From Nostoc linckia z4 (GTDB lineage: Bacteria; Cyanobacteriota; Cyanobacteriia; Cyanobacteriales; Nostocaceae), in NCBI RefSeq assembly GCF_002608075.1, contig NZ_LAHA01000035.1, positions 14,453 to 77,333 on the forward strand: a stretch of 62,881 nt of DNA. Reading direction: 5' to 3'. The notes below the pieces were generated by a model. That model did no database searches. It was not told the DNA's origin and was given only the letters and a program-made list of their open reading frames with translations. This document shows, piece after piece, positions 26,592 through 56,873 of this stretch (position 1 is the stretch's first letter; each line of letters begins with the position of its first letter). The position numbers and the translations under genes are program-made.

Positions 26592-26924
26592 TTAAACTCG
26601 CAATGCATCACGCATAAAAATCACTAATTTTGGAAGTGCCTGAAAAAATTCCTTTTCGTTATTGAATTGGTGAGTTTCAAGAAAGACATTGTTACTTGTA
26701 GATATTTCAATAATTTCCATTACACAAGCTCCTGACTCCCAAACTGTTACTCTACCAAGATGTAATAAACTCTCAAAATCAAGACACATAGCTGAATTAT
26801 CACTAGGTTGACAGTAGGTCAGCGTGTATTTCAGCTGATAAGCAGCAAAACGTGACTTTAATCCTGATTGAAATCTGTCAAAACCTCGTTCTGAGATTAG
26901 TTTTGTTAGTGGATTGATACTCAT
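26592..26924 (-). CDS. hypothetical protein
   Basis: 110-aa ORF with no recognisable motif. Confidence 0.45.
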   Translation of the reverse strand: MSINPLTKLISERGFDRFQSGLKSRFAAYQLKYTLTYCQPSDNSAMCLDFESLLHLGRVTVWESGACVMEIIEISTSNNVFLETHQFNNEKEFFQALPKLVIFMRDALRV

Positions 26925-27014
26925 TTATGATTATAGAAGTTTTCATTTGCTGTGACTATACATTAGTAGCTTCAAGTTAGAATATGATACTTTACACCAA
27001 TTTTTACTTTATCC

Positions 27015-27677
27015 ATGACAATTTTGATCGTAGAAACTCTATGCTCCGAAGCTGCTATATTTTCAGCAACCGAGTCTTTACATCCAGAACCTTTGCTATA
27101 TGGTGTGACTGATGGTAAGGCTGTCGGGACATACTTGGAACAAAAATTTAGACTTTATCTCAAACAGCGATATGAATTTGTAGAGGGTAATTCTGCAAGC
27201 AGTATTGACTTTCCAGGGTTACTTGTAGATGTGAAGGTAACAAGCATTCGACAACCACAATCATCATGTCCTTTCAAATCTGCACGTCAAAAGATATTTG
27301 GGCTTGGGTATTCGCTGCTGATTTTCGTCTACGATAAAACAGACAATAGTACGAACCGCACAGCAACCCTAAATATTTTGCATACTATTTATGTAAGCGC
27401 CGAAAGAACCGCAGATTTTCAGATGACTCGTGCAATTCGCAATATCATAGCAAACGAAGGTAATAAAGATGATTTAATTGCCTTCATGCTCGATCGCAAT
27501 TTACCCGTTGATGAAATTGAGGCAAGCAACATTGCCGATGAAATTATGAGCAATCCACCGGTACAGGGTTTTCTGACTATTTCCAACGCTTTGCAATGGC
27601 GACTCCAGTATGGAAGAGTAATAGAACGTGCTGGTCAAGAAGATGGTATAATTCCTGTTTACAAAATTAATCAATGA
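27015..27677 (+). CDS. probable type II restriction endonuclease
   Basis: 220 aa. PD-(D/E)xK-like IDFPGLLVDVKVTS. 4-nt ATGA overlap with the downstream methyltransferase. Confidence 0.55.
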   Translation: MTILIVETLCSEAAIFSATESLHPEPLLYGVTDGKAVGTYLEQKFRLYLKQRYEFVEGNSASSIDFPGLLVDVKVTSIRQPQSSCPFKSARQKIFGLGYSLLIFVYDKTDNSTNRTATLNILHTIYVSAERTADFQMTRAIRNIIANEGNKDDLIAFMLDRNLPVDEIEASNIADEIMSNPPVQGFLTISNALQWRLQYGRVIERAGQEDGIIPVYKINQ

Positions 27678-29116
27678 CTCATACTGCACATAAAACAAAG
27701 ATAGAGTACGGAGATTTCCAGACACCATTAGAATTAGCTAATAAAGTATGTAAAAAGCTAGTTGCACTCGGCATAACACCAGATATTATAGTTGAGCCAA
27801 CGTGTGGAGTTGGTAATTTTATTGAAGCAGCTTTAGATTCATTTCAATCAGTAAATAAAATTTTTGGAGTTGAAATCAATCCCGATTATTTAAATCAAGC
27901 TCAAACAAAAGCTAAATTTGTTAATCATAAAAGAATTGAAATTATATATGGAAATTTTTTTAAATTTGATTGGTCATCAATTATAGAAAAATCAAATCAT
28001 CAAATATTAGTAATTGGTAATTTACCTTGGGTAACAAACTCGCAGCAAGGTAGCATTGATGGAAAGAATTTACCAAATAAGAGTAATTTCCAAAACTATT
28101 CTGGTTTAGATGCAATTACAGGTAAGAGTAATTTTGATATATCTGAATGGATGTTAATTCAAGTTGTGCAATGGCTACAAAAGCGTGAAGGTTATCTAGC
28201 GATTTTATGTAAGAGTTCTGTTGCTAGGAAAATATTAACGTATATTAGTTCTCAAAAATTACATCTTGCTTACTGTGCAACTTACAAAATAGATACAAAA
28301 AAATATTTTGATGCTACTGTTGACGCGTGTTTACTGTTATGTAGATTTGAGTCAAATTCCAAAAATTATTTCTGTGATGTATTCAGTAGCCTTGAAACTT
28401 CTAATTATTATCGAATAGGTTATTGGAATAATGTACTTGTCAGAGATATTATTACATTTGAAAAACTACAAAATCTATACGATAAAAAATCAAAAATAAA
28501 ATGGCGCTCTGGTATTAAGCATGATTGCGCCAGTGTGATGGAGTTTCGCAAAATTAACAACACTCTGATTAATGGATTGGGAGAAGCTGTTGGTATTGAA
28601 GAAACATATCTGTTTCCTTTGCTTAAAGGTTCCTATGTTGCTCAAAATAAAACAAAGGTTACTGATAGATATGTTTTAGTAACTCAAAGATTTGTGGGTG
28701 AATCTATCGAACATATTAAAAATTACGCTCCTAAAACTTGGAACTATCTAGAAGCATATTCACAATACCTCGACAAAAGAAAAAGTAAGATTTATCAAAA
28801 TAACCCTCGATTTTCTATTTTTGGTGTAGGTTCGTATACTTTTGCACCTTGGAAAATTGCAATTTGTGGACTTTACAAAAAATTGGACTTTAGATTGATA
28901 GGTAAGATAGAAGAAAAACCTACTGTTTTTGATGATACAGTTTACTTTATTAGCTTTGATGATGAGAAAATTGCATATAAAACTTTTGAACTTTTGACTT
29001 CTTCAATAGCAAAAGAATTTTATTCGTCTCTAATTTTTTGGGATGAAAAGCGCCCAATCAAGTCTAGTATTTTAAATAAATTAAACTTGGCAGCTTTGGC
29101 AGAAGTATTAATTTGA
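27674..29116 (+). CDS. N6-adenine DNA methyltransferase
   Basis: 480 aa. SAM motif I EPTCGVGNFIEAA and motif IV-like VIGNLPWV. AT-rich gene. Confidence 0.75.
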   Translation: MTHTAHKTKIEYGDFQTPLELANKVCKKLVALGITPDIIVEPTCGVGNFIEAALDSFQSVNKIFGVEINPDYLNQAQTKAKFVNHKRIEIIYGNFFKFDWSSIIEKSNHQILVIGNLPWVTNSQQGSIDGKNLPNKSNFQNYSGLDAITGKSNFDISEWMLIQVVQWLQKREGYLAILCKSSVARKILTYISSQKLHLAYCATYKIDTKKYFDATVDACLLLCRFESNSKNYFCDVFSSLETSNYYRIGYWNNVLVRDIITFEKLQNLYDKKSKIKWRSGIKHDCASVMEFRKINNTLINGLGEAVGIEETYLFPLLKGSYVAQNKTKVTDRYVLVTQRFVGESIEHIKNYAPKTWNYLEAYSQYLDKRKSKIYQNNPRFSIFGVGSYTFAPWKIAICGLYKKLDFRLIGKIEEKPTVFDDTVYFISFDDEKIAYKTFELLTSSIAKEFYSSLIFWDEKRPIKSSILNKLNLAALAEVLI

Positions 29117-29240: not shown

Positions 29241-30779
29241 TCACTGCCCGTTAATCCGAATCAAGTCTGTCAAAATATTATCCAAACTGCCGTTAACTTG
29301 AATGCGATCGATTTTCTCTGCAATGCGTTCTAAAACTTCGAGTTCCTTGAGACGCAAAGCTACAGGGTTATCTTCCATCACTTTGGCAGTGTTTAACATA
29401 CTGCGGGTGGCGGCGGTTTCTTCTCTGCGTCTGACTACGTTTGCTTGAGCAGCTTTTTCGGCTTCGACTACTTTGCTCAAGATTGTCTTAATCTCGCCGG
29501 GTAAGATAATATCTTTGACGCCTACAGAATCTACTTCGATTCCATAGTCGGCGGTTTTTTGGCGGATATATTCAGATATGCTTGTGTCAATTGCACCTTT
29601 ATCTTCTAATAAGGCATCTAAGTTGCGTTCGCCGATCGCACCACGCAATGCAAATTGTAATTCTTTGTATAAGAAGCCGGCAATATCTGACAAGCCGCTT
29701 TTTGCTCTCAAGGGATCGAGGATGCGGAAGCCAGCTGTCAAATTTAACCGCAGAGGTACTTTATCCTTAGAAAGGATATCTTGACCTGATACTTCCATGT
29801 TTTGCAGTCTCAAGTCGATGGTTTCGGTTTGAAAGGAGCGTCCAAATAACCACCAAGCGTGTATACCTGGCGATCGCTGTCCTTGAAACTCTTGATTAAT
29901 ATACAGTAGTCCGGTGTGCTGTGCGGGTACTTGGCATGTATGCAAACAGTTGCGACTGAGCAATTTCACTTCTGCCGAACCTTCAACCAACTCAGCAACT
30001 AAGCGAGGCTCTAACTGAGCATCAGTGCTGATGTCGATAATTTCCACCTCAACACCTTGCCAAAACAGCTTGCGACTTGTGGGTGGTAAAATAGAAATCG
30101 CTTTACCTCGATACCGCACAATTGCAACTTGCCAATTCAGTAATTGTACTGTTTGGCAGTAAGCAGCAATAAAATCTGGATGTTTTTCAATTAGAACATC
30201 TTCTAGAGGAAAGTCTGGGTTAGGAACAATTCGGCTAAGAGTCCGTACTGTAACATCCCGATCCACTGACCAAAAAGCATATTCTCCAGGTTCTAGAGGT
30301 CGCACAAAATCATTTTGTACATACAGTAAACCAATCTCATACTCCGAAATTTGGAACTTTTTCACTCCATTCAAGCTGATTTTACGTAGTTGCTGCACAA
30401 AAGAACTAGGCAATTCTAAACTTTCTTCTAAGTTGAAGACATAAGATTCTACCTCAATAAAACCACGCCAAAAAGCTACCAATTGATTTGGTGCAACGCT
30501 TACCCAATTCTGGCCGTAGCGTACTAAAGCGGCTTGGTTGTATGCGGTTCTGATAATCAGTAAATGTTGTTGCAGTTCAGTCTGATGATTTCGCAACAAC
30601 AGCTCCAGGTTTTCAATTTGAGCTTGTGGCTGGTTGAGGTCATAAGTTTTTACTTGCCAATGACGACCAAAATAAGTATGTGTACCAGGCTGTAAAATTT
30701 TCTGGAAGTCGCTGCGGTGATATAAAATACCGATTTCGTTAGGTTTTATATAAAATGTTTTCCACATAGTAATTTGCAT
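29241..30779 (-). CDS. SPFH/band-7 (slipin-like) protein with triplicated N-terminal domain
   Basis: 512 aa. C-terminal SPFH core plus coiled coil (GIEVDSVGVKDIILPGEIKTILSKVVEAEKAAQANV). Three N-terminal repeats (EIGILYHRSDF, EIGLLYVQNDF, HTGLLYINQEF). Confidence 0.8.
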   Translation of the reverse strand: MQITMWKTFYIKPNEIGILYHRSDFQKILQPGTHTYFGRHWQVKTYDLNQPQAQIENLELLLRNHQTELQQHLLIIRTAYNQAALVRYGQNWVSVAPNQLVAFWRGFIEVESYVFNLEESLELPSSFVQQLRKISLNGVKKFQISEYEIGLLYVQNDFVRPLEPGEYAFWSVDRDVTVRTLSRIVPNPDFPLEDVLIEKHPDFIAAYCQTVQLLNWQVAIVRYRGKAISILPPTSRKLFWQGVEVEIIDISTDAQLEPRLVAELVEGSAEVKLLSRNCLHTCQVPAQHTGLLYINQEFQGQRSPGIHAWWLFGRSFQTETIDLRLQNMEVSGQDILSKDKVPLRLNLTAGFRILDPLRAKSGLSDIAGFLYKELQFALRGAIGERNLDALLEDKGAIDTSISEYIRQKTADYGIEVDSVGVKDIILPGEIKTILSKVVEAEKAAQANVVRRREETAATRSMLNTAKVMEDNPVALRLKELEVLERIAEKIDRIQVNGSLDNILTDLIRINGQ

Positions 30780-30916
30780 AGATAATTTGACCAGATTTAA
30801 TCAAAACATTTATAACCTCGCTGGAAACTAAATACCACCTATAATTCTGGAGTTGACAAACCTATAAATAAAGGTTGAAGGATTTGTTTGAGGTTTTGTA
30901 GTATTATATTACATTT

Positions 30917-31287
30917 TACTCTGCCGGCGCAGGTGTTTATAGTTTGGGATGCGGGCAAAAGCTTCTCCAGAACTGGATTAAGATTGCTGTTAGTTTTAAT
31001 AGACGGCTCAAAGGCAATCTAGAAAAACAGAACCGCGCTCAAATATGCCGATCGCTTTGCCAATCTAGAATTTCCGAAGTCAAAGCAGATATAGGAAAAC
31101 GAAGGTACATACTCAAGTTGGGGAGAGATTACAGTTGCGCTGGCTCCTTTACTGTTACGAACACCTGCATGACAGAGTACAAAAAACAAAAAGTTTTTTC
31201 ACTGGGTTTTTTTGAATCGCCCAATACATCTAGCTGTGACACTGCCTTGTCCCTAACAAGGTGCCCGTACCCAGGGCAGGGGTTTTT
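30917..31287 (-). ncRNA. structured non-coding region, module B body (homologue of 32604-32968)
   Basis: Patchy but strong conservation with module A (41-nt block with 1 mismatch, 30950-30990 vs 32634-32674; 31094-31155 vs 32761-32821). Many local hairpins. No conserved ORF. Strand inferred from the tRNA orientation. Confidence 0.5.
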
Positions 31288-31363
31288 TGGCTGAAAGTAT
31301 AGGAATCGAACCTATAATGAATCGGCGATACACCGATCGCTCTACCAAATGAGCTAACTTTCA
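31288..31363 (-). tRNA. tRNA-like cloverleaf with encoded CCA but non-canonical anticodon loop (UGUAUCG)
   Basis: Manual fold: TGAAAGT/ACTTTCA acceptor, GCTC/GAGC D stem, ATCGG/CCGAT anticodon stem, ATAGG-TTCGATT-CCTAT T arm, G-CCA. G at position 33 and C at position 37, so probably non-decoding. Confidence 0.6.
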
Positions 31364-31411
31364 TGGTGAAATAGTTGGAAGCATTAAGCGGTATACGCTA
31401 TTACCAGAGGT

Positions 31412-46046: not shown

Positions 46047-46213
46047 TTTTTCGATCCTCAAAAATTACAATTATTAATGCTTAAAGGTAAGTTGATAGTA
46101 CTTACGCATTGACCGAAAATTCCAAATGTGAATGAGTTTAAAAACCATATCTTTCGTATGGGTTTAGCATTGCTAAACCCAAACTAATTAGCTGATATAT
46201 ACCTTGAATATTC

Positions 46214-46597: not shown

Positions 46598-46599
46598 AT

Positions 46600-47475
46600 T
46601 TACTCCTTGGTTTTTAATGTTTCAATTACAGATAAAAGATCTTCAATGTCTGTTAGTAATGCGTTAATCCGTCCACTACTAGACCGACCCTCTACAAAAT
46701 CTTGAAATATGTTTTGAAAATCTCCCAGTGCTTGACTTGCATTTTCAAGTTCTGCGGCAGTGAGTTCTTGAGTTAATAGTTCTCTGCGAGTAGCTATCCA
46801 TGTATCTTCATCAGCGATGGGTGTGGGTTGGAGCAATGGGTTAATGACAAGTCTTAGTTCTTGTCTATCTTGAATTCCCTTTAAATCACCTTTAATTTGA
46901 GTACTCAGAACATTGAGTAACTCTTGCTGTGTCTTTAATTCAAGCATAATAGTCTGATTGCGTTTTTGCAGTTCTTCTTTAAGAGCGCCCCGAATCTTAG
47001 AACTGACGATTAGTTTTCCTATACCTTGAAAAACCTCTTTATTTTCTATTAAGTTGCTTTCTCGTAAGGTCTGACCTATTGTATTTAAATTATCTACTAC
47101 CCCTCCAATAGCAGTTTGTGTTCGCTCAGGAGCATCAGACCCAGCTAAGTCCTGTAGTAATTTAAAATACTTACTCAGCAAGCTGTTGTGTTTTTTGAGC
47201 CGATTAATTAAGTCAATTCTATTACTATCTGAATCTGAAAATTCATTGTAATCATCAGATGTTTGATTATTTTCTCTGTCTTGTAATAAAAGTTCTTCAG
47301 AGCTTTCGTCAATTCGAGTTACAACAGCTAGATCTAATAGTTGGTTGAGAGCTTTGGAATAATTAGTTCCTGCCTGTGCTAGTTTTTTATATTCGTCAGT
47401 GGAACGACAAGCACTCAAACAAGTTGTGGCTATTGCTACAGCAATTATTATTGGAAAGTGAATTTTATTTTTCAT
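46600..47475 (-). CDS. putative lipoprotein, helical
   Basis: 291 aa. Signal peptide plus lipobox (IAVAIATTCLSAC). Coiled-coil-like remainder. Confidence 0.6.
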   Translation of the reverse strand: MKNKIHFPIIIAVAIATTCLSACRSTDEYKKLAQAGTNYSKALNQLLDLAVVTRIDESSEELLLQDRENNQTSDDYNEFSDSDSNRIDLINRLKKHNSLLSKYFKLLQDLAGSDAPERTQTAIGGVVDNLNTIGQTLRESNLIENKEVFQGIGKLIVSSKIRGALKEELQKRNQTIMLELKTQQELLNVLSTQIKGDLKGIQDRQELRLVINPLLQPTPIADEDTWIATRRELLTQELTAAELENASQALGDFQNIFQDFVEGRSSSGRINALLTDIEDLLSVIETLKTKE

Positions 47476-47551
47476 CTATTGTTTTCAAAGTTGCCCAAAA
47501 ATTATCGCATCAAATGTAGTTTTTGATTGAAAAATAGTAAAATAGATTAAA

Positions 47552-49222
47552 TTATCCATTTTTTAAATTCAGAAAATTTTGTCGAATCCACAATCTAAAT
47601 ATGCGTTTTAAAAGCCACTTTGTTAAGGGTTTTCCAATAAATATCCGGACATTCAGCTTAATAAAACTCCATAACTTAGATAAACGAGAACCATTATTTT
47701 TCATATCAAGCGGTTCTAGCCTGTCATTGATTAGATCCACCAAAGATTCTAAACGGAAGCTTAACTGATTTACAATTTCTTGACGTGTTTCTATGTCAAC
47801 CTCTGCCATTAACCTTCGTAATTCTGCAAGTTGATCTCGTTTGATGGCGTCATTATCTTGTAGTTGTTCTCCTTCTGGTGAACGAGGTTTTGCTAATTGA
47901 CTTAACTCTTTTTTTGCTTCATCCCAAGTATTTAAATTTTTATCGTTAACCTTACAATTAACTATCCACTCAAGAGGTGGCATTTTATTAAGTTCAAGGT
48001 TGAGTAAATCTTGGAGTTGACTCTTTGCTTGAAGATTGGACAGTTCAAATTGAGTGCGTTCCCGACCAATGTTGTAATCATAAGCCCGGAATTTCTTTTC
48101 AAGAAATCCAGCAAAGGCTGAGAAGACATCGCCAATTAACTCAAAGTCATTAGCTGTAATGGAAAATACTGGAGCATCCATTTCTTCCATAATCCAATCT
48201 TGGAAGCGAGACTGGTGAAAAATTGAACTCAGCAATGCAATTCCTGTTACCAAGAGATCGTTATCTTTTTTGATAAAAGGATTTTCGGGTAATTGGCGTT
48301 GACCTGGTGCAATATAAAGGTAATATCTTTTATCAGATAAATCTTGATTTTGATCGATGCGATCCACGAGGAGTTTAGCCATACCAATAGGCTCATTTTC
48401 AAAAACTCCACCATCTGTGTACAGATACTCCTCATTACGATCGCGACGCTTACCAAATCCACCAAAACGTCGAATTTTCCGAAGTTTAAAAGCGAAGGGA
48501 AATGCACCAGATGATAGACCGGCTTCGCGTAACTCACTCCAGTTAGTATCTCTAAGTTTTTTCCATTCTATTGACTCGCGTCCTGTTCTTGGATCTCTTA
48601 TTGTCTCTCGATCTATTTCATCAAGCGTCACATTCCCAAATCCATCGCGACGAGCTAGACACACAAATTGATCCTTATAACGGGTATATGCAAACTTTAG
48701 TGTTCCTTCTTTTCGGCCTTCACGAGCGTAATCAGTTGTAAGAGGGAAAGTATAGCCAGACAAGTTGGACATAGCTATACCAACATAAATCTCAGACGCA
48801 GCAGCCGGATGCTTTTGGTTGATTTGAACACGATCTTGCAGATATTTATTCCCAATTTTTTCAACAACTGCTGTTTGTAAAAGTGAGTATTTTTGATCTT
48901 CTTTTTCAACTTTAATTAATTCCCGAATATCAACTTCATCAACCCATGCATTGTAGAGTGGATTATTATATGGTTTGCGTAAAGACTGGTCTGGACGAAA
49001 GGGTGCAGGCTGATCGCCACAAAGAAGATGTTGGACTAAAATACAAGCCGTCATCCCACCCGCCGAAGCACCTGTAATTACATCAATTTCAATGGGTTCT
49101 TCATGATTTTTTATATCTTCGTTATGTCTGGCGATCGCTTCCAAAATTTCATACATAACGCCAGCTTCATAACTGCCAAGTGATACTGCTCCACTGATAA
49201 CAACGGCAAGCTTTTTGGGCAT
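47552..49222 (-). CDS. patatin-like phospholipase with extended C-terminal domain
   Basis: 556 aa. Oxyanion-hole motif SGAVSLGSYEAG, nucleophile GASAG, catalytic Asp motif YTDGGVFENEP. Confidence 0.85.
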   Translation of the reverse strand: MPKKLAVVISGAVSLGSYEAGVMYEILEAIARHNEDIKNHEEPIEIDVITGASAGGMTACILVQHLLCGDQPAPFRPDQSLRKPYNNPLYNAWVDEVDIRELIKVEKEDQKYSLLQTAVVEKIGNKYLQDRVQINQKHPAAASEIYVGIAMSNLSGYTFPLTTDYAREGRKEGTLKFAYTRYKDQFVCLARRDGFGNVTLDEIDRETIRDPRTGRESIEWKKLRDTNWSELREAGLSSGAFPFAFKLRKIRRFGGFGKRRDRNEEYLYTDGGVFENEPIGMAKLLVDRIDQNQDLSDKRYYLYIAPGQRQLPENPFIKKDNDLLVTGIALLSSIFHQSRFQDWIMEEMDAPVFSITANDFELIGDVFSAFAGFLEKKFRAYDYNIGRERTQFELSNLQAKSQLQDLLNLELNKMPPLEWIVNCKVNDKNLNTWDEAKKELSQLAKPRSPEGEQLQDNDAIKRDQLAELRRLMAEVDIETRQEIVNQLSFRLESLVDLINDRLEPLDMKNNGSRLSKLWSFIKLNVRIFIGKPLTKWLLKRIFRLWIRQNFLNLKNG

Positions 49223-49751: not shown

Positions 49752-50549
49752 TTACAAATGATTTTTAAACAATTCTAAAACATGTTGCCAAGCATCAGGA
49801 GCAGCTTCAGGATTGTAACTTGGATGTTGTTCCATAAATGGGTACTTATCTTTGAAAAATCCGGCGAAAAATCCGTGCCCGGCATCGTATCTAAATACAC
49901 GATGATTGATTTGATGTTTTTTTAATTCTGCTTCAATTTGTTCAGTTTCCTCCTGAGAAATAAATGTATCTCTTGTACCGAAAAAGGCATAAATAGTACC
50001 TTGAATTTGTGAAGTGCGATTAATAGTTGGAGTTTCTTCACCATAACTAGAAGTGGTAATTCCAGCACCGTAAAACGAAGCTGTAGCTTTGATATCCGGG
50101 AAAGTTGCAGCGATGTAAGCAACATGACCGCCAAAACAAAAACCAACGACACCAATGGCATCATGTTTAACATTGGGTAAAGTTTTTAAGTAGGCGATCG
50201 CCGCTTGAATATCACTTAAGATATCTTGATACTTTACTTGTTGATAGTATTCCAATCCCAGCCGATAGGCTTCTGGACTAAATCCAACATCTTCAGCACT
50301 AAGATCCGCTGCAAAACCAGGAGCAATCCGTTGATACATCGCGGGAGCTATTACTACATAACCTTGTTTAGCAATTAATTCAGTGATGTCTCGAATGTTA
50401 TTATTGATGCCAAAAATTTCTGGAAAAACGATAACGGCGGCAAAGGTTCCTTCATGTGCTGGTTGAGCTAAGTAAGCATCAATTTCTAAGTTATTGTTAG
50501 GTATTTTGACTTTTGCGGTGTTAATTTCGATGTTTGTGATTTCTACCAT
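49752..50549 (-). CDS. dienelactone hydrolase family protein
   Basis: 265 aa. Nucleophile elbow GFCFGG and C-terminal His (YDAGHGF). Confidence 0.8.
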   Translation of the reverse strand: MVEITNIEINTAKVKIPNNNLEIDAYLAQPAHEGTFAAVIVFPEIFGINNNIRDITELIAKQGYVVIAPAMYQRIAPGFAADLSAEDVGFSPEAYRLGLEYYQQVKYQDILSDIQAAIAYLKTLPNVKHDAIGVVGFCFGGHVAYIAATFPDIKATASFYGAGITTSSYGEETPTINRTSQIQGTIYAFFGTRDTFISQEETEQIEAELKKHQINHRVFRYDAGHGFFAGFFKDKYPFMEQHPSYNPEAAPDAWQHVLELFKNHL

Positions 50550-50948
50550 CTTTTTTCAGGTTATTTGATACCAACTTTTCTATTTTGGCTGTTTTTTGAC
50601 ACGGATGATAAACTGGCATTGCATTTAAGTCAGAAATGTTTTGGTGTTGATTGTTGACTGATGACGGTTGACTGTTGACAGTATGAGTGAGTGTATAATT
50701 TAAAAGTTTAATAATCTGCAACAAGCTAATTTTTTCCGTTTACACAGCAACCACAAGCTAGACGGTCGTATGATAAATCACACAACCAAGGCATGAAAAT
50801 ATTTATTTCTCAGTCAACAGTCAACATTGAATTTATAACTTTTGAATAGACAACATCTCGAACTTCTGGATGATACTAAGGGTTTTTGATTTGTGCGACC
50901 TTACAAAGGTAAGCATAAAGACTCAATATTAAGAAGCACAAAAAAACT

Positions 50949-51488
50949 ATGCCAGATCAAACATTTAGAGCAAACATACCAGAAGTTGACCCAACGGAGA
51001 TTGAAGATACTCGAACTGCCATCGCTGACGAACATCGTTCATTTTTAGAAAAAGTCATGGTGAAAGGTGGGTTTGCAGACATCTATGACGCCAGAGACTT
51101 TACCGAAGTTGTGTTTCGCGTCATGCGTGATTTGATGACAACAGAAGCAAGCGATCGCGTCGAGGGAGAACTGCATAAAGAAGCCGTATCTACCGATGAA
51201 AAAGCACTCCAGTTTGATATTGCCGATCTTTGGAAAGATACCAATCCAATTGTGGGATTTTTAAGCCGAGTTCGTCCACCCTGGCAAGGCCCTGGAATTT
51301 TCAAAATCGATTCCGATCGCTTTTTGTTCCGAGTTGCTAATGAAGGGGGCAAACCAGAAACAGTTGACCGAGAACAGGCAGTAAAAGCCGTATTTTCTGC
51401 CACCAAAGACGAACTTTCCCAAGAAAGAATTGAAGAAATTGCTAGTTGGCTACCTGACTATGTACGTCAGCTTTGGCAACAAGCTTAA
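50949..51488 (+). CDS. hypothetical protein (DUF2267-like?)
   Basis: 179-aa ORF with a clean start. Family assignment from memory only. Confidence 0.5.
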   Translation: MPDQTFRANIPEVDPTEIEDTRTAIADEHRSFLEKVMVKGGFADIYDARDFTEVVFRVMRDLMTTEASDRVEGELHKEAVSTDEKALQFDIADLWKDTNPIVGFLSRVRPPWQGPGIFKIDSDRFLFRVANEGGKPETVDREQAVKAVFSATKDELSQERIEEIASWLPDYVRQLWQQA

Positions 51489-51555
51489 TTACAAGTGTGA
51501 AAAAGTCAAGCCTGTTTGCAGTTGACGATAATTGCAAGCAGACTTTTTATATAAA

Positions 51556-51924
51556 TCACTCCGCAGACTTCACCGTTTGATTTGCCACCAAGCGTGGTTT
51601 CTTTCGTTCTGACTTACGCGTTCCACCAGCCATACCATATTCATCACTATTTTTGCCATAGCGAGACGCAACACTCAGCAGCATGTGTTCAGAATAATCA
51701 TTCAACACACGTTCAGCTTCTTCTAATGCATTCTGCGTTTTATCTATCATCGTTCGTGCTTGATTATGGGCGGCTAGCTTTTCTCGCAAATCCTGAATCA
51801 TAGTATTGTAACTAGTTATTGATAACCCATTACCAAAATCTAAGTCAGGCTTAATCGCCTGCATTCCTTCAACCCGTCGTTCAGCTTTCGTCAGTGCAAC
51901 TGAGTTTCGTCTGCGTTGCGGCAT
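51556..51924 (-). CDS. hypothetical coiled-coil protein (paralogue of 36699-37124)
   Basis: 122 aa. Colinear similarity to the 141-aa protein. Also preceded by a tandem repeat array. Confidence 0.65.
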   Translation of the reverse strand: MPQRRRNSVALTKAERRVEGMQAIKPDLDFGNGLSITSYNTMIQDLREKLAAHNQARTMIDKTQNALEEAERVLNDYSEHMLLSVASRYGKNSDEYGMAGGTRKSERKKPRLVANQTVKSAE

Positions 51925-52294: not shown

Positions 52295-52349
52295 CAGCAA
52301 GCTGTTGCACAGCACAGCCTAAATTAGGGATGCGATCGCGCTTATTTTC

Positions 52350-52685
52350 TCAGGCTACGCCATATTGCGTATATTGGCGCAAGTGTGATGGCTGTAGTCC
52401 TAAAACAATATCCTCTCTGGGTACTCCCATTTCAGTCAACTCTTGGGCAATTTGGATATCAGTCATATTACGCTGAATCCATATTTTTTCATCTTTAATA
52501 TCGAGATGTATCACACAATTATAAATGCGATCGTATCCATACCAGCCAATCTCTAAAATCTGGTAATGGTCTCGCGCTGTATCGAATATCAGTTGAATTT
52601 CAACATCTTCCTCTGAAGGTTGGTAACTGCTATATTTAGTTAATAACTTTTGAATATATTCACGATATTGGTCTAGCTTTGCCAT
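52350..52685 (-). CDS. xisI: XisI family protein
   Basis: 111 aa. Characteristic YREYIQKLL...DTARDHYQILEIGW...IHLDIKDEKIWIQ. Confidence 0.82.
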   Translation of the reverse strand: MAKLDQYREYIQKLLTKYSSYQPSEEDVEIQLIFDTARDHYQILEIGWYGYDRIYNCVIHLDIKDEKIWIQRNMTDIQIAQELTEMGVPREDIVLGLQPSHLRQYTQYGVA

Positions 52686-53089
52686 TGCACAATCACCTCA
52701 TCATTTGGATCGTAAACTATTAATTTAACTTGATATTCTTGTACTGAACTTTGGGCAAAGTCCCGGCTAAATAGCGATCTATACGTTGACAGTGGAACTG
52801 CTAGGAACAAAACTCTCTCAGGTTCTCTGAGTCGCAAAGCTAATCGATAATTGAGAAACTGCCCCAAAGCCGCATGGTAGTCAAAAAGTTCTGAATCCCC
52901 TAAAAAACTTTTGATTTCAACAGCAATTTTCTCTGTTCCTCGCTCAGCTGCTAAGATTTGTTCCGCACCTAAATCGATTGACATTTTATCTTTGCCAAAC
53001 TTAACCACTAGCGGATCGTGCGTAATAATCCACCCTTCTTTTTCTAGTCCCCGTTTAACGGCTTCATGAAAAATGTCTTTTGCAGACAC
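52673..53089 (-). CDS. xisH: XisH family protein
   Basis: 138 aa. Characteristic MSAKDIFHEAVKRGLEKEGWIITHDPL...AVEIKSF. Overlaps xisI by 13 nt. Confidence 0.82.
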   Translation of the reverse strand: MSAKDIFHEAVKRGLEKEGWIITHDPLVVKFGKDKMSIDLGAEQILAAERGTEKIAVEIKSFLGDSELFDYHAALGQFLNYRLALRLREPERVLFLAVPLSTYRSLFSRDFAQSSVQEYQVKLIVYDPNDEVIVQWQS

Positions 53090-53309
53090 GGACAGAACCA
53101 GAACCCAATAACCTTATGATACCGAACTATGATTATGCTGCATTGCACTTTGCGATAAATATAGGAGGAATGCGATCGCCTGCTGATACAATGAAGGTGC
53201 GTTGCCCTTTGCGACAACGCACCCTACATTAGAGATGCGATATTATAATTTGATTTCCTGTCTTATTAGAATTACCTCAAGATTCAGGATTGCTATATCG
53301 TTTACATTA

Positions 53310-54332
53310 TCATTCCAAAACTGTAGATGATGAGGATTTAGATACTTGAGTCATTTGATACTCGATCTGCGTAATTGCAGACATTATACTGTATTCATGC
53401 CCTTCTAATAGAGCATTTTTAATCTCTCTAACTTGCTCTAGGAGAGCTTTTCTAAGATATGGCTTTTGTTTAGATACGTAAGAATGATGACTCCAAATAT
53501 CAGAACCAATGATAAGAAATCCTGCTATCCAACCAGCAGCACACTTCGCTGCAAATGATGTTATTGCCTTGCCTAATCCTGCTTTAAGAGCAGTTTTACA
53601 GCCTAACTTCGCTAAAATTTTAGTGGCTTGTTTGCCGACATAAGCAATAAATTCTGTAGAAGATAATGTCATTTTCATGCCATATACTGCGCCTGTTATT
53701 GCCATGTCCTTTCCCCCCTTTTCAATCCAATATGCGATGTTACTAAACTGATAAATAATTCCCCCTTTTTCATAAGTTATCTTGCTGAGTTCCATGCTTA
53801 ATTCCTGAAACTCAACATTAGAAAGTTCATACTTGCATTGAATTTCCATAAAACCTTTTGCTAGTTCTACTGCATAAACATCAACCGTCTGTGTGAGTAT
53901 ATTCTGCATTTTTCTTTCCATCTGAGTAGGTGATAAAATATATACTTCAATCTTTTGTGCAACTTCTGTCTGTAGTGACTCTTTAGAAATAAGAGACATT
54001 AGACCTATTTTCTTTTGATAAAAATAATCAAAATATTCTTCCATGAAAACTTCTATATTTGGTTGCAGAGATTGAATCCACTCTTCTAAATGCTTATCTG
54101 CAAAGTCCTTGGCTTTAATTTTTGATTTCTCAAAAACAGCTAAAATTTCTTCAAGGAATTTCTCGCGGCTAAAATGTCTGTTAACTCTGTGCTTTTTATT
54201 TGAACCGCCAGGATTGTCTGACAAACTATATCGAGCAGTAAACAAGTAGATAAAGCACCAAAATATCAATAACATGGCTGTACCATAGCCTAGTACACTG
54301 CCGAAGGAATCAAGAAAATGGGAAAGCATCAC
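53310..54332 (-). CDS. hypothetical membrane protein
   Basis: 340 aa. N-terminal TM (GYGTAMLLIFWCFIYLF) and C-proximal hydrophobic segment (CAAGWIAGFLIIG). AT-rich. Confidence 0.55.
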   Translation of the reverse strand: MMLSHFLDSFGSVLGYGTAMLLIFWCFIYLFTARYSLSDNPGGSNKKHRVNRHFSREKFLEEILAVFEKSKIKAKDFADKHLEEWIQSLQPNIEVFMEEYFDYFYQKKIGLMSLISKESLQTEVAQKIEVYILSPTQMERKMQNILTQTVDVYAVELAKGFMEIQCKYELSNVEFQELSMELSKITYEKGGIIYQFSNIAYWIEKGGKDMAITGAVYGMKMTLSSTEFIAYVGKQATKILAKLGCKTALKAGLGKAITSFAAKCAAGWIAGFLIIGSDIWSHHSYVSKQKPYLRKALLEQVREIKNALLEGHEYSIMSAITQIEYQMTQVSKSSSSTVLE

Positions 54333-54527
54333 TTACTCGTAATGAATTACGCAGATAGCTTACCAAAACACTGATTTCGGAAGTTTCGGGAGAAAGGTAG
54401 TCCGCACTCAACTACTCCTACAAGGATTTCCAGACCTCAAGAACAAAAAATCCTTAGGTTCTCATGAGGTTTTTTCGTAAATTTTTTGTAAATTTTTTAT
54501 AAATTTTTATTAAAAATGGGGGCTAGG

Positions 54528-56225
54528 TTAATCTTGAAGGAAACGTAACAAGTCTGAATTTTGTAAAAAGTAACTAAAACTAGGATGATATAACCTATAG
54601 TGCAACTTTCCGTCCACTTCTTGTTTATATAGAAACTGTTTCCACTCCTCTAGTATTAACTGAAGTTCATATTGAGATTCAAATAAAGAAACCATATCAG
54701 TGAAAGATATTAGGCTAACATGACCTGAACTAGCATTAGCTAACTTACGAAGAAGCCGCTTGTGTCTGATATCACTTTTGTGATTAATATTCATACGGCG
54801 TAAATGACTCTCGTAATACCCTCTCAAACCTTCTGGAAGATTATCAAGACTATCCAAGTTTTTATAAACGCCTCGCTCAATATCTACTAATACATTTTTT
54901 AAATACCTAAAGTTTCTTTGACTTTTAAGTGTAAGAGTTTCAATAAGTTTTTCTTCACTTTCAAAAAGTCTTTCTTCACTACATGTTTTATCATCTTGTG
55001 AAGTGCGAAGCTTTTCTCTTCTGTCTAAATACTTTTTGATATATGTTCTACAATCTTCCTTCCATGTGTCACCAATAAGGCAGCTAATATCTTCTATCAT
55101 TAAAGGCACTTCAATTTCTAAGAAAATATTTTTTGGACGCTGAGACATAAAGAAAAAAATACCTTCTGGAAGATATTCCGGCAATTTTAGTATATTTTCT
55201 GACTCGTTGCTTAAATATACTTCGTCCAAAGCATCTATGACAATAACTAACTGTGACTTGTGCTTATGTAAAACTTTTTTACTTATCTCCTCAAGTAAAC
55301 TATTAAGTAGCGAAATATCAACATTTTCTAACTTTTCTTTAAAATGTCTTAGTTGATCATAATATTTATGATATAATTGGTTACAAATACTTTCTAGAAA
55401 ATCATAAATCTGGTTAAGTCCTTGGGGTTGCTGTACAAAAAAACAGGGACATTTATTTTCTAATACATACTTAGCTAGTATTGCTGTTTTTCCAACTCCA
55501 GGATCGCCCTGCAATATAAAATATCCTTGTGAATGATCTTTTTGAAATTTTTTAAATCTCTCAATAATATCTTTTCTTTCAATAAAATCTTCTGGATCTG
55601 TATGGTACTTAATTAAAGTCTGAAATTCTAAAGGAGGTTCAAATATATTGCTATTAATAAAGGAATTTGAATTGCCAAAAAATTCATTTTCATAACGTTC
55701 TTTTAGGGATTTAATAGTTTCATCGTTACTTTCGCTGATAACAATATTGTTGACAGTAAATCTCCAATCTTTAGACCCCTGCCTTGTAGATTTATGGCGA
55801 TCATCTTTTAGAAGTTTGTGTTCATCTGCATCCTTTATTACGTCTCCAAGTGATTTAATTACAGTTTCCTTTTGAAAATCGTTGGATATATCAGGATAAT
55901 TTTTACAAAAATCCTGTGATTCTTGTGAGCATATTGAATTTTTTACATACGAATTAACTAGATTTTCTAAATTTTTTAGAGTGCAACAAACTTCAATAGT
56001 TTTATTCCTTATATCATCACTAATGTTTCCCTTGAAATCCGGATATGGTTTATTTTCATCCTCACCTTGATTGCGAATGTAGTCTTTTAATGCCATAATA
56101 AGTAAAATAGCCCGTTGCATTTTTTTGTTACTAATTTTTCTGTCTTCTTTCGATGCGTTCATATTTGATAATATATATAAATAAGAGTTTGCACATTTTT
56201 TAGGTAAGTATATATAAATATACAT
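54528..56225 (-). CDS. STAND/NACHT-like P-loop NTPase with unknown N-terminal domain
   Basis: Walker A GDPGVGKTAILAKY, Walker B LVIVIDALDEV. Likely start at Met 56162 (MNASKEDRK). AT-rich, no HIP1 seen by eye. Confidence 0.7.
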   Translation of the reverse strand: MYIYIYLPKKCANSYLYILSNMNASKEDRKISNKKMQRAILLIMALKDYIRNQGEDENKPYPDFKGNISDDIRNKTIEVCCTLKNLENLVNSYVKNSICSQESQDFCKNYPDISNDFQKETVIKSLGDVIKDADEHKLLKDDRHKSTRQGSKDWRFTVNNIVISESNDETIKSLKERYENEFFGNSNSFINSNIFEPPLEFQTLIKYHTDPEDFIERKDIIERFKKFQKDHSQGYFILQGDPGVGKTAILAKYVLENKCPCFFVQQPQGLNQIYDFLESICNQLYHKYYDQLRHFKEKLENVDISLLNSLLEEISKKVLHKHKSQLVIVIDALDEVYLSNESENILKLPEYLPEGIFFFMSQRPKNIFLEIEVPLMIEDISCLIGDTWKEDCRTYIKKYLDRREKLRTSQDDKTCSEERLFESEEKLIETLTLKSQRNFRYLKNVLVDIERGVYKNLDSLDNLPEGLRGYYESHLRRMNINHKSDIRHKRLLRKLANASSGHVSLISFTDMVSLFESQYELQLILEEWKQFLYKQEVDGKLHYRLYHPSFSYFLQNSDLLRFLQD

Positions 56226-56381
56226 AAAAAATTATTATACATTTAGTCTTTGAATAAACTCTTTGCTTTATATTTACTTTACAAATAAAATTCAACAGGT
56301 TTATCAATGATTATTTTAGAACGAGTTTTTTACCTGACGGGGCAATAAGCACCTCAGAATCCTTATCATGTATAAATTTAA

Positions 56382-56600
56382 CTATATGAACTGATTGCGT
56401 GTTATTGTCGCATCTGTGATGCTAATACTTCCACTGCGCGATCGCCTCGTAATTGCTGCTATAATTTCCACACCAGTTATTGCAGCAATAAATACCTCAT
56501 TGTTGAGAGTTGGATCGAATAAGCCTAACACCCAAGCAGATCCAGTTTCACTTATATAACGCTTAACTAATGCGCTACTATCTATGAAGTATCTTGCCAT
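56382..56600 (-). pseudogene. vapC: truncated PIN-domain toxin vapC (N-terminal half only)
   Basis: 72 aa (MARYFIDSSALVKRY...AAITGVEI...). Stops after ~half of a normal ~135-aa PIN domain, and no continuation is seen downstream. Confidence 0.6.
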
Positions 56601-56873
56601 TTAACGGCGTTCCTCAATGATAGTTTCAGAGACAGGCTTTCCCTCGACCTGAATTAGTCTTCGTTCAGCTATTGGTTCGTAAGCAAAATGCTTAATTTGC
56701 TTTACTAAGCCAGAATCGATTAAAGCTTGGTGAAATGCTGTTTGCTTAAGATTTTCCTCTTTAACAGCAAGATACTTTTGAATTGTTTGGCTAAGTTGTT
56801 GAAGCTCTGTTGTTTCCAGTGTCTCAAGTTGCTTAAGTATTTGGTTTAAGGTTTCTAGTGCCATACCTTTCAA
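56601..56873 (-). CDS. antitoxin partner of truncated VapC
   Basis: 90-aa ORF abutting the vapC fragment start. Confidence 0.5.
   Translation of the reverse strand: MKGMALETLNQILKQLETLETTELQQLSQTIQKYLAVKEENLKQTAFHQALIDSGLVKQIKHFAYEPIAERRLIQVEGKPVSETIIEERR

What the first reader, a model, noticed from the sequence alone, without database searches (positions are those of the whole stretch)
26592..56873. The developmentally excised element is loaded with defence-type and addiction-type cargo
The element contains the following: a type II R-M pair (27015-29116), the SPFH gene, the retron-type RT locus, a patatin-like phospholipase operon (45675-49222), a STAND NTPase with a neighbouring membrane protein (53310-56225), xisH/xisI, and a decayed vapBC pair (56382-56873). 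These are mixed with ordinary-looking genes: a histidine kinase, a PstS-like protein, a methyltransferase and a dienelactone hydrolase. The cargo is present in every vegetative cell but is cut out of the chromosome in terminally differentiated heterocysts. By eye, HIP1 (GCGATCGC) occurs in the RT, SPFH and patatin genes but not in the AT-rich MTase or STAND genes, which suggests cargo of different ages.
Basis: partly seen in the sequence, partly recalled or inferred. Interest (0 to 1): 0.6.

Follow-up and report, generated by a model that had tools for sequence, protein, structure and literature searches.

The report
Conflict-gene cassettes inside the nifD excision element
The 32.5-kb DNA element that interrupts the nitrogenase gene nifD in this Nostoc strain has a conserved backbone, and the gaps between backbone genes have filled with restriction, retron-like, STAND, patatin and toxin-antitoxin genes, including an apparently undescribed module of reverse transcriptase, structured RNA and stomatin-like protein.

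Summary
The window carries a XisA-type nifD element of 32,499 bp, bounded by exact GGATTACTCCG repeats at 26206 and 58705. Removing it in silico restores a 500-aa NifD.

Only the NspV-type R-M pair is a complete, recognised defence system. The RT is retron-class (PADLOC RT_XIII, 1e-149) but lacks the canonical type XIII partners. It forms one conserved module with the SPFH gene and a ~590-nt structured RNA that contains a tRNA-like unit. The STAND, patatin and TriTu genes are conflict-type by domain only. vapC is truncated.

Comparison with 80 Nostocales xisA loci shows a syntenic backbone: xisA, vapBC, xisHI, DUF2267, DLH, methyltransferase, histidine kinase, Alr1449. All defence-type genes lie in variable slots between backbone genes, and other strains hold different conflict genes in those slots.

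GC3 heterogeneity is real (defence-type 0.25, other element genes 0.33, chromosome 0.40). The HIP1 pattern is not significant, and the AT-rich MTase is not a recent arrival.

The parts
26206..26216 (+). Left 11-bp recombination repeat GGATTACTCCG inside nifD
   Evidence: Exact match; it is one of only two copies in the window.
58705..58715 (+). Right 11-bp recombination repeat GGATTACTCCG
   Evidence: Joining the two repeats restores a 500-aa NifD.
57050..58351 (-). xisA, the tyrosine recombinase of the element
   Evidence: Relatives at 86-95% identity lie next to nifK in 80 Nostocales loci. There is a weak Phage_integrase hit.
26592..26924 (-). Orphan TriTu immunity-protein gene in a variable slot.
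   Evidence: PF24689, 8e-24. It also occurs in the nifD element of Nostoc C052, L088.
27015..29116 (+). Type II R-M pair: NspV-family REase (27015-27677) and N6-adenine-type MTase (27674-29116). The two ORFs overlap by 4 nt.
   Evidence: The same pair occupies the same slot in L081/L082, L073 (REase internally deleted) and L066.
29241..30779 (-). SPFH / stomatin-like protein of 512 aa, the conserved downstream partner of the RT
   Evidence: Band_7 5e-29. PH stomatin 1.7e-23. It follows every short-form RT that has enough downstream flank, by 0.72-0.93 kb.
30912..31492 (-). Structured non-coding element, copy A, between RT and SPFH. It has a ~125-nt leader, a tRNA-like unit (31288-31363, aberrant anticodon loop U-G-UAU-C-G, CCA encoded) and a ~390-nt domain closed by a long-range helix.
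   Evidence: Rfam finds only the tRNA part.
31534..32586 (-). Retron-class reverse transcriptase, short form (350 aa). YADD, NAxxH and VTG motifs are present.
   Evidence: PADLOC RT_XIII 9.6e-150. Retron Ec86 RT 1e-39. The motifs are read from the translation.
32589..33246 (-). Structured non-coding element, copy B, upstream of the RT. Same architecture as copy A, with two tRNA(CAU) units (32969-33121).
   Evidence: The copy upstream of the RT was found only in the Nostoc and Oscillatoria loci and is absent in L176 and L097.
33541..34233 (-). Alr1449-family backbone gene
   Evidence: PF27270 on record. Present in 26 of 80 loci.
36699..37124 (+). Backbone gene of unknown function, paralogous to 51556-51924
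   Evidence: Present in 24 of 80 loci. It clusters with orf122.
38696..40909 (+). Backbone histidine kinase (dCache, HAMP, HATPase_c)
   Evidence: Full-length relatives in 24 of 80 loci.
44841..45488 (+). Backbone SAM methyltransferase
   Evidence: Present in 23 of 80 loci.
45675..49222 (-). Patatin cassette in the variable slot between the methyltransferase and DLH. It holds patatin (47552-49222, GASAG and DGG motifs intact), a putative lipoprotein (46600-47475) and two paralogous coiled-coil ORFs (46214-46597, 45675-46061).
   Evidence: Among the 80 loci it occurs only in L002 (partial) and L003. PADLOC gives only 6e-5.
49752..51924 (.). Backbone block: dienelactone hydrolase, DUF2267 and orf122
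   Evidence: Present in 44, 43 and 24 of 80 loci respectively.
52350..53089 (-). xisI and xisH, part of the backbone
   Evidence: Present in 25 and 18 of 80 loci.
53242..56386 (-). Strain-lineage-specific 3.1-kb cassette carrying the STAND NTPase (54528-56225) and an all-helical protein of unknown function (53310-54332). Its insertion removed the 3' half of vapC.
   Evidence: Homology to L008 and L001 breaks at 56387 and resumes at 53241. Neither gene has a relative in any of the 80 loci. GC is 0.30-0.35.
56382..56873 (-). vapB-like ORF (56601-56873, intact) and a truncated PIN/vapC (56382-56600, 72 of about 154 aa)

Best explanation
The nifD element of this Nostoc linckia-group strain is a vertically inherited, XisA-excised genomic island with two layers.

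The first layer is a syntenic backbone shared by many Nostocales nifD elements: xisA, vapBC, xisHI, orf122, DUF2267, DLH, a methyltransferase, a histidine kinase, orf141 and Alr1449.

The second layer is a set of variable slots between the backbone genes. Independent cassettes have been inserted, swapped and eroded in these slots. In this strain the slots hold mostly conflict-type genes:
- an intact NspV-type R-M pair;
- a retron-derived RT, structured RNA and SPFH module;
- an orphan TriTu immunity gene;
- a patatin cassette;
- a recently inserted STAND cassette that truncated vapC.

What is shown: the boundaries, the precise in-silico restoration of nifD, the backbone-and-slot architecture, the domain identities, and a compositional gradient by GC3 (chromosome > backbone > variable genes).

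What is inferred: the element tolerates insertions because it is dispensable DNA whose only cost, the interruption of nifD, is removed by excision. On this view it behaves like the defence hotspots of other mobile-element-derived islands. The R-M pair, and formerly the vapBC pair, may in addition penalise loss of the element from dividing vegetative cells.
For: - Boundaries and ORF restoration.
- Backbone conservation and synteny across 80 xisA loci.
- All defence-type genes of the window lie between backbone genes and are rare or absent in other elements within the 10 kb sampled next to xisA. STAND and orf340 occur in 0 of 80 loci, patatin in 2, RT in 0, SPFH in about 3 and MTase in 2.
- The vapC|xisH slot holds a different gene in L001 and L010: a 1215-1223-aa NB-ARC/APAF1/TPR STAND.
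- The cassette breakpoints map to 56387 and 53241.
- A pooled scan of 150 non-backbone ORF representatives from the other elements finds TIR/ThsB, AriA/OLD-type ATPases, PIN, Uma2, a C5 MTase, HEC-01A and PDC candidates. It also finds P450, SDR, epimerase, PPK2 and EAL genes.
- Other nifD elements carry GmrSD, DUF2357/PDDEXK_7 and a DUF4011 helicase.
- GC3 is 0.40 for chromosomal genes, 0.33 for backbone and 0.28 for variable genes. Defence-type genes are at 0.25 against 0.33 for the rest of the element, p = 0.001.
- The flanking 30 kb gives only a weak TIR hit and one PD-Lambda-2_B fragment.
Against: - About 60% of the element is not conflict-related.
- Only one complete, recognised system (R-M) is present. 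PADLOC gives no hit or only weak hits for SPFH, patatin, orf340 and the STAND.
- No genome-wide baseline was available. Enrichment over the Nostoc accessory genome, which from general knowledge is itself rich in R-M, TA and STAND genes, is therefore not demonstrated.
- The related loci cover only 10 kb next to xisA, so rarity of the genes distal to xisA (RT, R-M, TriTu) is under-sampled. Targeted look-ups found RT-SPFH and the R-M pair in several other elements.
- Variable slots of other elements also carry many metabolic genes.
Confidence: 0.72

Rival explanations
1. There is no special loading. The cargo is a random sample of the Nostoc accessory genome, which is rich everywhere in R-M, TA, STAND and retroelement genes. 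The element is simply non-essential DNA where anything can land.
For: - Variable slots of other elements carry many non-defence genes, including P450, SDR, epimerase, PPK2, EAL and MarR.
- The patatin relatives of other cyanobacteria sit in ordinary chromosomal neighbourhoods, one of them purely housekeeping.
- No genome-wide baseline could be computed.
Against: - Roughly 8-13 of the 28 element genes are conflict-type, against two weak or partial hits in 30 kb of flank.
- The same slot holds different STAND genes in different strains. That pattern is typical of defence hotspots.
Confidence: 0.3
2. The R-M pair and vapBC are addiction modules that stabilise the element. If the element excised and was lost from a dividing vegetative cell, residual REase or toxin would kill that cell. 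A non-dividing heterocyst keeps the excised circle and is unharmed.
For: - The REase and MTase are both intact, and their ORFs overlap.
- vapBC lies next to xisA in 12 of 80 elements.
- R-M and TA post-segregational killing is established knowledge.
- From my own knowledge (Golden et al. 1985), the excised nifD circle persists in heterocysts.
Against: - vapC is truncated in this strain.
- The REase has decayed in related elements: it is internally deleted in L073, and in L081 the gene calls split it into 84- and 50-aa fragments.
- Many nifD elements have neither module.
- TTCGAA is absent from the whole window and from 90 of 95 related loci. The chromosome therefore offers few or no targets for post-segregational cleavage.
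Confidence: 0.15
3. The element is a decayed prophage or integrative element, and the conflict genes are leftover superinfection-exclusion genes of that ancestor rather than later insertions.
For: - A tyrosine recombinase sits at one end, and the element has short direct-repeat attachment sites.
- Hilton et al. 2016 (PMC4874684) cite the hypothesis that these elements originated from phages.
Against: - None of the Pfam hits to the 28 ORFs is to a phage structural or replication family.
- The conflict genes are the variable part and the backbone is not conflict-related.
- The STAND cassette is demonstrably a later insertion that destroyed vapC.
- A conserved motif of the RT-linked RNA is absent from IMG/VR viral contigs.
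Confidence: 0.1

Closest known systems
The 11-kb nifD element of Anabaena/Nostoc sp. PCC 7120 (XisA; Golden et al. 1985), and the nifD-position-1355 element variant surveyed by Hilton, Meeks and Zehr 2016 (PMC4874684)
   Same: - Identical 11-bp repeat GGATTACTCCG.
- Same insertion point near the 3' end of nifD.
- xisA lies at the end nearest nifK, on the opposite strand.
- Shares Alr1449-family and other backbone genes.
- Hilton et al. already reported highly variable length and gene content.
   Different: - This element is three times larger (32.5 kb).
- Hilton et al. contains no occurrence of 'restriction', 'toxin', 'defense' or 'reverse transcriptase'.
- The layering into backbone and slots, and the conflict-type nature of the slot contents, are not described in that paper.
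Defence islands and defence hotspots of mobile-element-derived islands, such as the P2/P4 hotspots and integrative islands
   Same: - Conserved flanking genes with a variable middle.
- Different immune genes occupy the same position in related strains.
- Lower GC than the host.
- Systems erode: truncated vapC, and decayed REase in relatives.
   Different: - The island is not known to transfer horizontally.
- It sits inside an essential developmental gene and is excised in a programmed way in a terminal cell type.
- The slots also take up metabolic genes.
Retron type XIII (Mx162/Mx65 clade; Mestre et al. 2020, PMC7736814)
   Same: - The RT scores best against the PADLOC RT_XIII model (1e-149).
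- It carries the YADD, NAxxH and VTG motifs.
- A structured non-coding RNA with a long-range closing helix lies adjacent to it.
   Different: - The RT lacks the N-terminal ~100 aa of the cyanobacterial long form.
- There is no WH-SWIM (cluster 114) or HEAT/ARM (cluster 216) partner. The conserved partner is instead a 508-528-aa SPFH protein.
- The RNA contains a tRNA-like unit with an encoded CCA.
- In the minimal loci the RNA lies downstream of the RT.
- Nostoc and Oscillatoria carry two RNA copies.
The skin element in sigK of Bacillus subtilis, and similar intervening elements excised in a terminally differentiated mother cell (from my own knowledge)
   Same: A mobile-element-derived insertion in a developmental gene. 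A dedicated recombinase removes it only in a terminal, non-reproducing cell. It carries accessory cargo.
   Different: - Different recombinase family and different host phylum.
- No sequence relationship was tested here.

Membership tests
XisA-type nifD excision element | Interrupts nifD near its 3' end and is bounded by the 11-bp direct repeat GGATTACTCCG | tested here: met
   Exact repeats at 26206 and 58705.
XisA-type nifD excision element | xisA recombinase gene inside the element, at the end nearest nifK | tested here: met
   57050-58351(-). Relatives in 80 Nostocales loci are 86-95% identical, and 77 of those loci have nifK adjacent.
XisA-type nifD excision element | Precise excision restores an intact nifD reading frame | tested here: met
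   The in-silico join gives a 500-aa NifD.
XisA-type nifD excision element | Excision occurs specifically during heterocyst differentiation | not testable with these tools
   This needs DNA from purified heterocysts.
Type II restriction-modification system (NspV family) | Adjacent full-length REase and MTase genes | tested here: met
   REase matches positions 1-219 of the 220-position PADLOC profile and scores 347 bits on NCBIfam (cutoff 290). MTase matches positions 2-472 of 475. The Pfam family NspV is on record for this protein.
Type II restriction-modification system (NspV family) | Enzymatic activity and TTCGAA specificity | tested here: inconclusive
   TTCGAA occurs 0 times against 22.7 +/- 4.1 expected. 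It is also absent from 90 of 95 related loci whether or not they carry this R-M pair.
Retron type XIII | RT belongs to the type XIII / clade 10 retron RT lineage | tested here: met
   PADLOC RT_XIII 9.6e-150, the best of 75 RT models. The closest solved structures are all retron RTs.
Retron type XIII | Linked WH-SWIM (cluster 114) and HEAT/ARM (cluster 216) accessory proteins (Mestre 2020) | tested here: not met
   No such ORF lies near the RT. The neighbours are SPFH and the Alr1449-family gene. A long-form cyanobacterial RT (L089) does have a WGR/HEAT protein and a 546-aa partner.
Retron type XIII | msr-msd ncRNA flanked by a1/a2 inverted repeats, adjacent to the RT | tested here: inconclusive
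   A ~300-nt domain closed by a 14-bp long-range helix has covariation support: 97% of cells are paired against 35-48% in the slid controls, and 18 pairs show changes on both sides. The branching G was not identified. The RNA lies downstream of the RT in the minimal loci.
Retron type XIII | Production of msDNA | not testable with these tools
   This needs nucleic-acid gels or RT-DNA sequencing.
Avs-type / STAND anti-phage NTPase | STAND P-loop NTPase core | tested here: met
   NPHP3_N 49.7 bits (cutoff 24.8); PADLOC STAND_TPR 4.5e-11.
Avs-type / STAND anti-phage NTPase | Fused N-terminal effector and C-terminal repeat sensor (TPR or WD40) | tested here: not met
   Only a sub-threshold EAD4 adaptor-type hit (25.9 against 27 bits). 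No repeat domain was detected, the protein is 565 aa, and Avs1b scores only 9e-5.
EAD-coupled NTPase conflict system (Kaur et al. 2020) | A second copy of the same EAD on an adjacent effector gene | tested here: not met
   orf340 shares nothing with the STAND N-terminus (BLASTP E = 3.2). The one close orf340 relative has no STAND neighbour.
VapBC toxin-antitoxin | Intact PIN-domain toxin with an upstream antitoxin | tested here: not met
   The toxin ORF stops after 72 aa. Its orthologues are 154-172 aa and PIN-positive at 25.6-26.8 bits (cutoff 23.6). The upstream 90-aa ORF is intact but matches no antitoxin family.
Patatin-effector defence systems (for example CBASS phospholipase effectors) | Patatin catalytic core | tested here: met
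   Patatin 52.8 bits (cutoff 27.7). The GASAG and DGG motifs are present in the translation.
Patatin-effector defence systems (for example CBASS phospholipase effectors) | A linked sensor or signal-generating partner (cyclase or similar), or a recognised defence-family assignment | tested here: not met
   PADLOC gives only 6e-5 over 57 residues. The three co-operonic ORFs have no family. They are not conserved next to relatives in Cylindrospermum or Synechococcus, and whether the two unassigned ORFs downstream of the Pseudanabaena relative are related was not compared.
Polymorphic-toxin immunity (TriTu) | Immunity domain with an adjacent cognate toxin | tested here: not met
   The domain is present (8e-24). 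No toxin gene is adjacent, so it is an orphan immunity gene.

The most novel reading that the evidence does not exclude
The RT, its flanking structured RNA and the SPFH gene (29241-33246) form a previously undescribed retron-derived system of cyanobacteria. The proposed order is a short type-XIII-lineage RT, then a ~590-nt non-coding RNA, then a stomatin-like protein that would act as the membrane-associated effector in place of the SWIM and HEAT proteins. The RNA has a leader, a tRNA-like unit ending in CCA, and a ~300-nt domain closed by an a1/a2-like helix. The tRNA-like unit would act either as an RNase P/Z processing signal that frees the template RNA, or as a recognition or priming handle for the RT.
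Probability: 0.4. Interest if true: 0.75.

Novelty: new variant of a known kind. Interest (0 to 1): 0.58.

Why it matters
What the heterocyst interruption elements carry, and why they are kept, has been an open question since 1985. Hilton et al. 2016 call it 'yet another mystery'.

If the slots between backbone genes are recurrent landing sites for immune and addiction genes, the elements would be part of the Nostocales pan-immune system. That would give them a selectable function in vegetative cells. It would also make the question testable, by deleting cassettes and challenging with cyanophages, or by forcing excision and scoring viability.

Separately, the RT, tRNA-like RNA and SPFH module would add a new effector class and an unusual RNA architecture to retron biology. 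It would also provide a conserved large structured RNA that is absent from Rfam.

Tried and rejected
- **HIP1 as an age marker.** Rejected. The counts are too small (probability of zero sites is 0.33-0.39 per gene), the core nif genes also have none, and the difference in rate gives p = 0.09.
- **Low GC as proof of recent arrival of the MTase.** Rejected. The same R-M pair lies in the same slot in L081/L082, L073 and L066.
- **TTCGAA avoidance as evidence that this R-M copy is active.** Rejected as uninformative, because the avoidance is clade-wide.
- **STAND and orf340 as an EAD4-coupled pair.** Rejected.
- **Function of orf340.** Led nowhere. The word-indexed search of the 5.8-billion-cluster collection found only two close relatives. 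An exhaustive phmmer search of 1.84 billion representatives found 112 distant ones, and no informative Pfam domain was found in the ten longer or fused relatives scanned. The AlphaFold model is all-helical with pLDDT 75. Foldseek against the PDB gave nothing below E = 0.03, and the ClyA-family hits have TM scores of only 0.13-0.17.
- **The patatin operon as a conserved four-gene system.** Not supported. The accessory ORFs are absent next to the Cylindrospermum and Synechococcus relatives. The two unassigned ORFs beside the Pseudanabaena relative were not compared.
- **Rfam identity for the RT-linked RNA.** Only the tRNA part matches. YrlA scores 28 bits against a gathering score of 69.
- **The RNA as the canonical type XIII ncRNA.** An nhmmer profile of the element found no match in the long-form RT loci, except L104/L105.
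- **Promoter prediction for the two RNA copies.** The simple sigma-70 scan found nothing at the expected positions.
- **Viral origin of the RNA motif.** No match in IMG/VR contigs.
- **The tRNA units as ordinary decoding tRNAs.** Doubtful. The anticodon triplet drifts between CAU, UAU and AUU in the upstream copies, and the downstream copy has G33 and C37. The acceptor and T arms are invariant.

Full report
**Anatomy of the window**

The window is a Nostocales nif cluster. It reads nifB-fdxN-nifS-nifU (about 18.3-22.8 kb), nifH 23799-24692, nifD from 24854, nifK 59138-60673, then nifE.

The 11-bp sequence GGATTACTCCG is the recombination site of the Anabaena PCC 7120 nifD element (my own knowledge). 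It occurs exactly twice, at 26206-26216 and 58705-58715. Removing one repeat and everything between the two restores a 500-aa NifD ORF ending at 58855. The element is therefore 32,499 bp, with xisA (57050-58351, minus strand) at the end nearest nifK.

An exact-protein look-up places the sequence on contig LAHG01000027.1 of assembly GCA_002608345.1. An identical orf340 is annotated in Nostoc linckia z18.

**Checking the listed genes**

All are present as described.

- The R-M pair is the strongest call. The REase matches a PADLOC type II model end to end (1.2e-132), passes the NCBIfam equivalog cutoff (347 against 290 bits), and has the Pfam family NspV on record. The MTase matches its PADLOC model at 1.2e-238.
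- The RT is retron-class. Its best PADLOC model is RT_XIII (9.6e-150), the closest solved structures are all retron RTs (Ec86, 1e-39), and the YADD, NAxxH and VTG motifs are visible in the translation.
- The SPFH protein is stomatin-like.
- The patatin protein keeps its GASAG and DGG catalytic motifs. Its only PADLOC hit is 6e-5.
- The STAND protein has a genuine NTPase core (NPHP3_N 49.7 bits), a sub-threshold EAD4 N-terminus and no repeat sensor.
- xisH and xisI are clear.
- The 72-aa ORF at 56382-56600 is the N-terminal half of a PIN protein. The orthologue is 154 aa in L001 and 172 aa in L008, and both pass the Pfam PIN cutoff.

**Backbone and slots**

A scan of one genome per species returned 80 xisA loci, each with 10 kb of element interior. 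tblastn with the window's proteins shows a recurrent, syntenic set of genes. Counted by full-length matches, these are DLH (44 loci), DUF2267 (43), the Alr1449-family gene (26), xisI and xisH (25 and 18), the histidine kinase (24), orf122 and orf141 (24 each), the methyltransferase (23) and vapB/vapC (12 and 11).

Every defence-type gene of the window lies between two backbone genes:

- TriTu, the R-M pair, SPFH and the RT lie between the nifD border and Alr1449.
- The patatin cassette lies between the methyltransferase and DLH.
- STAND and orf340 lie between xisH and vapC.

The last case is an insertion with mapped breakpoints. Homology to L008 and L001 stops at 56387, exactly where vapC is cut, and resumes at 53241. 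In L001 and L010 the same slot holds a different gene, a 1215-1223-aa NB-ARC/APAF1/TPR STAND.

I pooled 150 non-backbone ORF-cluster representatives from the other elements and scanned them. They include TIR/ThsB-like, AriA/OLD-type, PIN, Uma2, C5-MTase, TnpB, HEC-01A and PDC-candidate proteins. They also include P450, SDR, epimerase, PPK2, OCP-N, EAL and MarR genes. Targeted look-ups found GmrSD, DUF2357/PDDEXK_7 and a DUF4011 helicase in other nifD elements.

The flanking 30 kb of the window gives only a weak TIR hit and a PD-Lambda-2_B fragment.

**Ages and composition**

Mean GC3 falls from 0.40 in chromosomal genes to 0.33 in backbone genes and 0.28 in variable genes. Defence-type genes average 0.25 against 0.33 for the rest of the element (Mann-Whitney p = 0.001). 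Heterogeneity is therefore real.

The HIP1 argument does not hold. Zero sites is the expected outcome for a 1.4-1.7-kb gene about a third of the time. The four nif genes have none in 5.2 kb. The difference in rate gives p = 0.09.

Presence or absence across elements is a better clock:

- STAND and orf340 have no relative in any of the 80 loci, so they are the youngest.
- The patatin cassette is shared with L002 and L003 at a divergence similar to that of the backbone.
- The R-M pair, despite a GC of 0.30, sits in the same slot in L081/L082 (94-97% identity), L073 (MTase 79%, REase internally deleted) and L066. It is therefore not recent.

TTCGAA, the NspV site, is absent from the window (22.7 +/- 4.1 expected). 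It is also absent from 90 of 95 related loci. This reflects clade-wide history and says nothing about the activity of this particular copy.

**The RT-SPFH module**

The RT and the SPFH gene are one unit.

- Short-form RTs (347-368 aa, 62-98% identical to the window's) were recovered in three Nostoc genomes, Oscillatoria nigro-viridis PCC 7112, Scytonema millei and seven metagenome contigs. In every one with enough downstream flank, a 508-528-aa Band_7 protein follows 0.72-0.93 kb downstream. Several of these loci are outside any nifD element.
- About sixty long-form RTs (mostly 466 aa or more) have no SPFH. One of them (L089) shows the canonical WGR/HEAT protein plus a 546-aa partner.
- The intergenic DNA is more conserved than the RT protein. 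It has a ~125-nt leader, then a tRNA-like unit with an encoded CCA, then a ~390-nt region.
- In that region RNAalifold finds a ~300-nt domain closed by a 14-bp long-range helix. Of 87 predicted pairs, 18 change on both sides. 97.1% of cells are paired against 35-48% when the partners are slid. None of 500 shuffles reaches the observed score.
- The tRNA-like unit between RT and SPFH has an aberrant anticodon loop (G33, C37). In the upstream copies the anticodon drifts between CAU, UAU and AUU while the acceptor and T arms stay invariant.
- Nostoc and Oscillatoria carry a second copy upstream of the RT (window 32589-33246). Scytonema millei and the L097/L098 metagenome contigs have only the copy between RT and SPFH.
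- L006 has the RNA plus SPFH without an RT, and L004 has the leader and tRNA units next to SPFH without an RT.
- One long-form RT (L104) has the RNA but an OmdA-domain gene in place of SPFH.
- Rfam recognises only the tRNA part. A conserved motif of the RNA has no match in IMG/VR contigs.
- Mestre et al. 2020 contains no mention of SPFH, Band 7 or tRNA. Full-text searches found no paper linking a retron RT with SPFH or a tRNA-like RNA.

**Most likely mechanism of the module**

This is inference. I read the module as a retron-derived abortive-infection system. The RT would copy part of the closed RNA domain into DNA. The resulting nucleoprotein complex would restrain the oligomeric, stomatin-like effector until infection perturbs it.

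It fails membership of type XIII on accessory genes. The ncRNA criterion is unresolved, and msDNA production is untested.

**The other candidates**

- The patatin family is widespread in cyanobacteria. It often sits beside NB-ARC STAND genes and, in one case, a caspase gene. Its three co-operonic ORFs were not found next to the Cylindrospermum or Synechococcus relatives, and the two unassigned ORFs beside the Pseudanabaena relative were not compared.
- orf340 belongs to a sparse, unannotated, all-helical family.
- orf340 shares nothing with the STAND N-terminus. Its one close relative has no STAND neighbour.

**Overall reading and limits**

The element is best seen as a vertically inherited island whose backbone is unrelated to conflict and whose inter-gene slots behave like a defence hotspot.

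- I could not compute a genome-wide baseline.
- The related loci cover only 10 kb next to xisA.
- Nothing about expression or excision can be tested here.
- Hilton et al. 2016 documented the variable content of these elements, but the paper contains none of the terms 'restriction', 'toxin', 'defense' or 'reverse transcriptase'. Two further full-text searches found no paper linking nifD elements with defence systems.

Noticed in passing
window 29241-33246 (minus strand); also L081, L083, L086, L088, L092-L098, L176: The RT, a ~590-nt structured RNA containing a tRNA-like unit, and a 508-528-aa SPFH protein form a conserved module in filamentous cyanobacteria, inside and outside nifD elements. 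The RNA is absent from Rfam and has strong covariation support.
   Followed up: yes
window 31288-31363, 32969-33121: Three tRNA genes are predicted inside the element, all with an encoded CCA. The one between RT and SPFH has G33 and C37 in the anticodon loop. Anticodons drift among orthologous copies, so these are probably tRNA-like RNA modules rather than decoding tRNAs.
   Followed up: partly
whole window and 90 of 95 fetched loci: The hexamer TTCGAA (NspV/AsuII site) is completely absent: 0 found against 22.7 expected in the window. The avoidance is clade-wide.
   Followed up: partly
window 26592-26924: An orphan TriTu immunity-protein gene lies directly inside the left border of the element. 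A relative sits in the nifD element of Nostoc sp. C052 (L088 2881-3225).
   Followed up: partly
window 36699-37124 and 51556-51924: Two paralogous small backbone genes (141 and 122 aa, arginine-rich N-termini) of unknown function are both conserved across many nifD elements. They lie in opposite orientation.
   Followed up: no
L001 12979-16626; L010 12001-15672: Other nifD elements hold a 1215-1223-aa NB-ARC/APAF1-helical/TPR STAND protein in exactly the slot where this window has its unrelated 565-aa STAND cassette.
   Followed up: partly
L073 18994-19370; L081 10937-11599: The NspV-type REase is eroded while the MTase stays intact. It is internally deleted in L073, and in L081 the gene calls split it into 84- and 50-aa fragments. 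This is the usual route to an orphan methyltransferase.
   Followed up: partly
L104 2557-5557: A long-form (484-aa) RT is followed by the same tRNA-like structured RNA, but then by an OmdA/YdeI-domain gene instead of SPFH. The RNA therefore travels with the RT lineage as well as with SPFH.
   Followed up: partly
window 1205-1651 and 14594-15322: Outside the element, a 148-aa ORF matches the N-terminal quarter of PADLOC PD-Lambda-2_B (3.6e-17), and a 242-aa ORF gives a weak TIR-effector hit (2.5e-4).
   Followed up: no
window 60822-61178: A small ORF between nifK and nifE has an N-terminal His-Thr repeat (HTHTHTHTHPHP) and several cysteine pairs.
   Followed up: no
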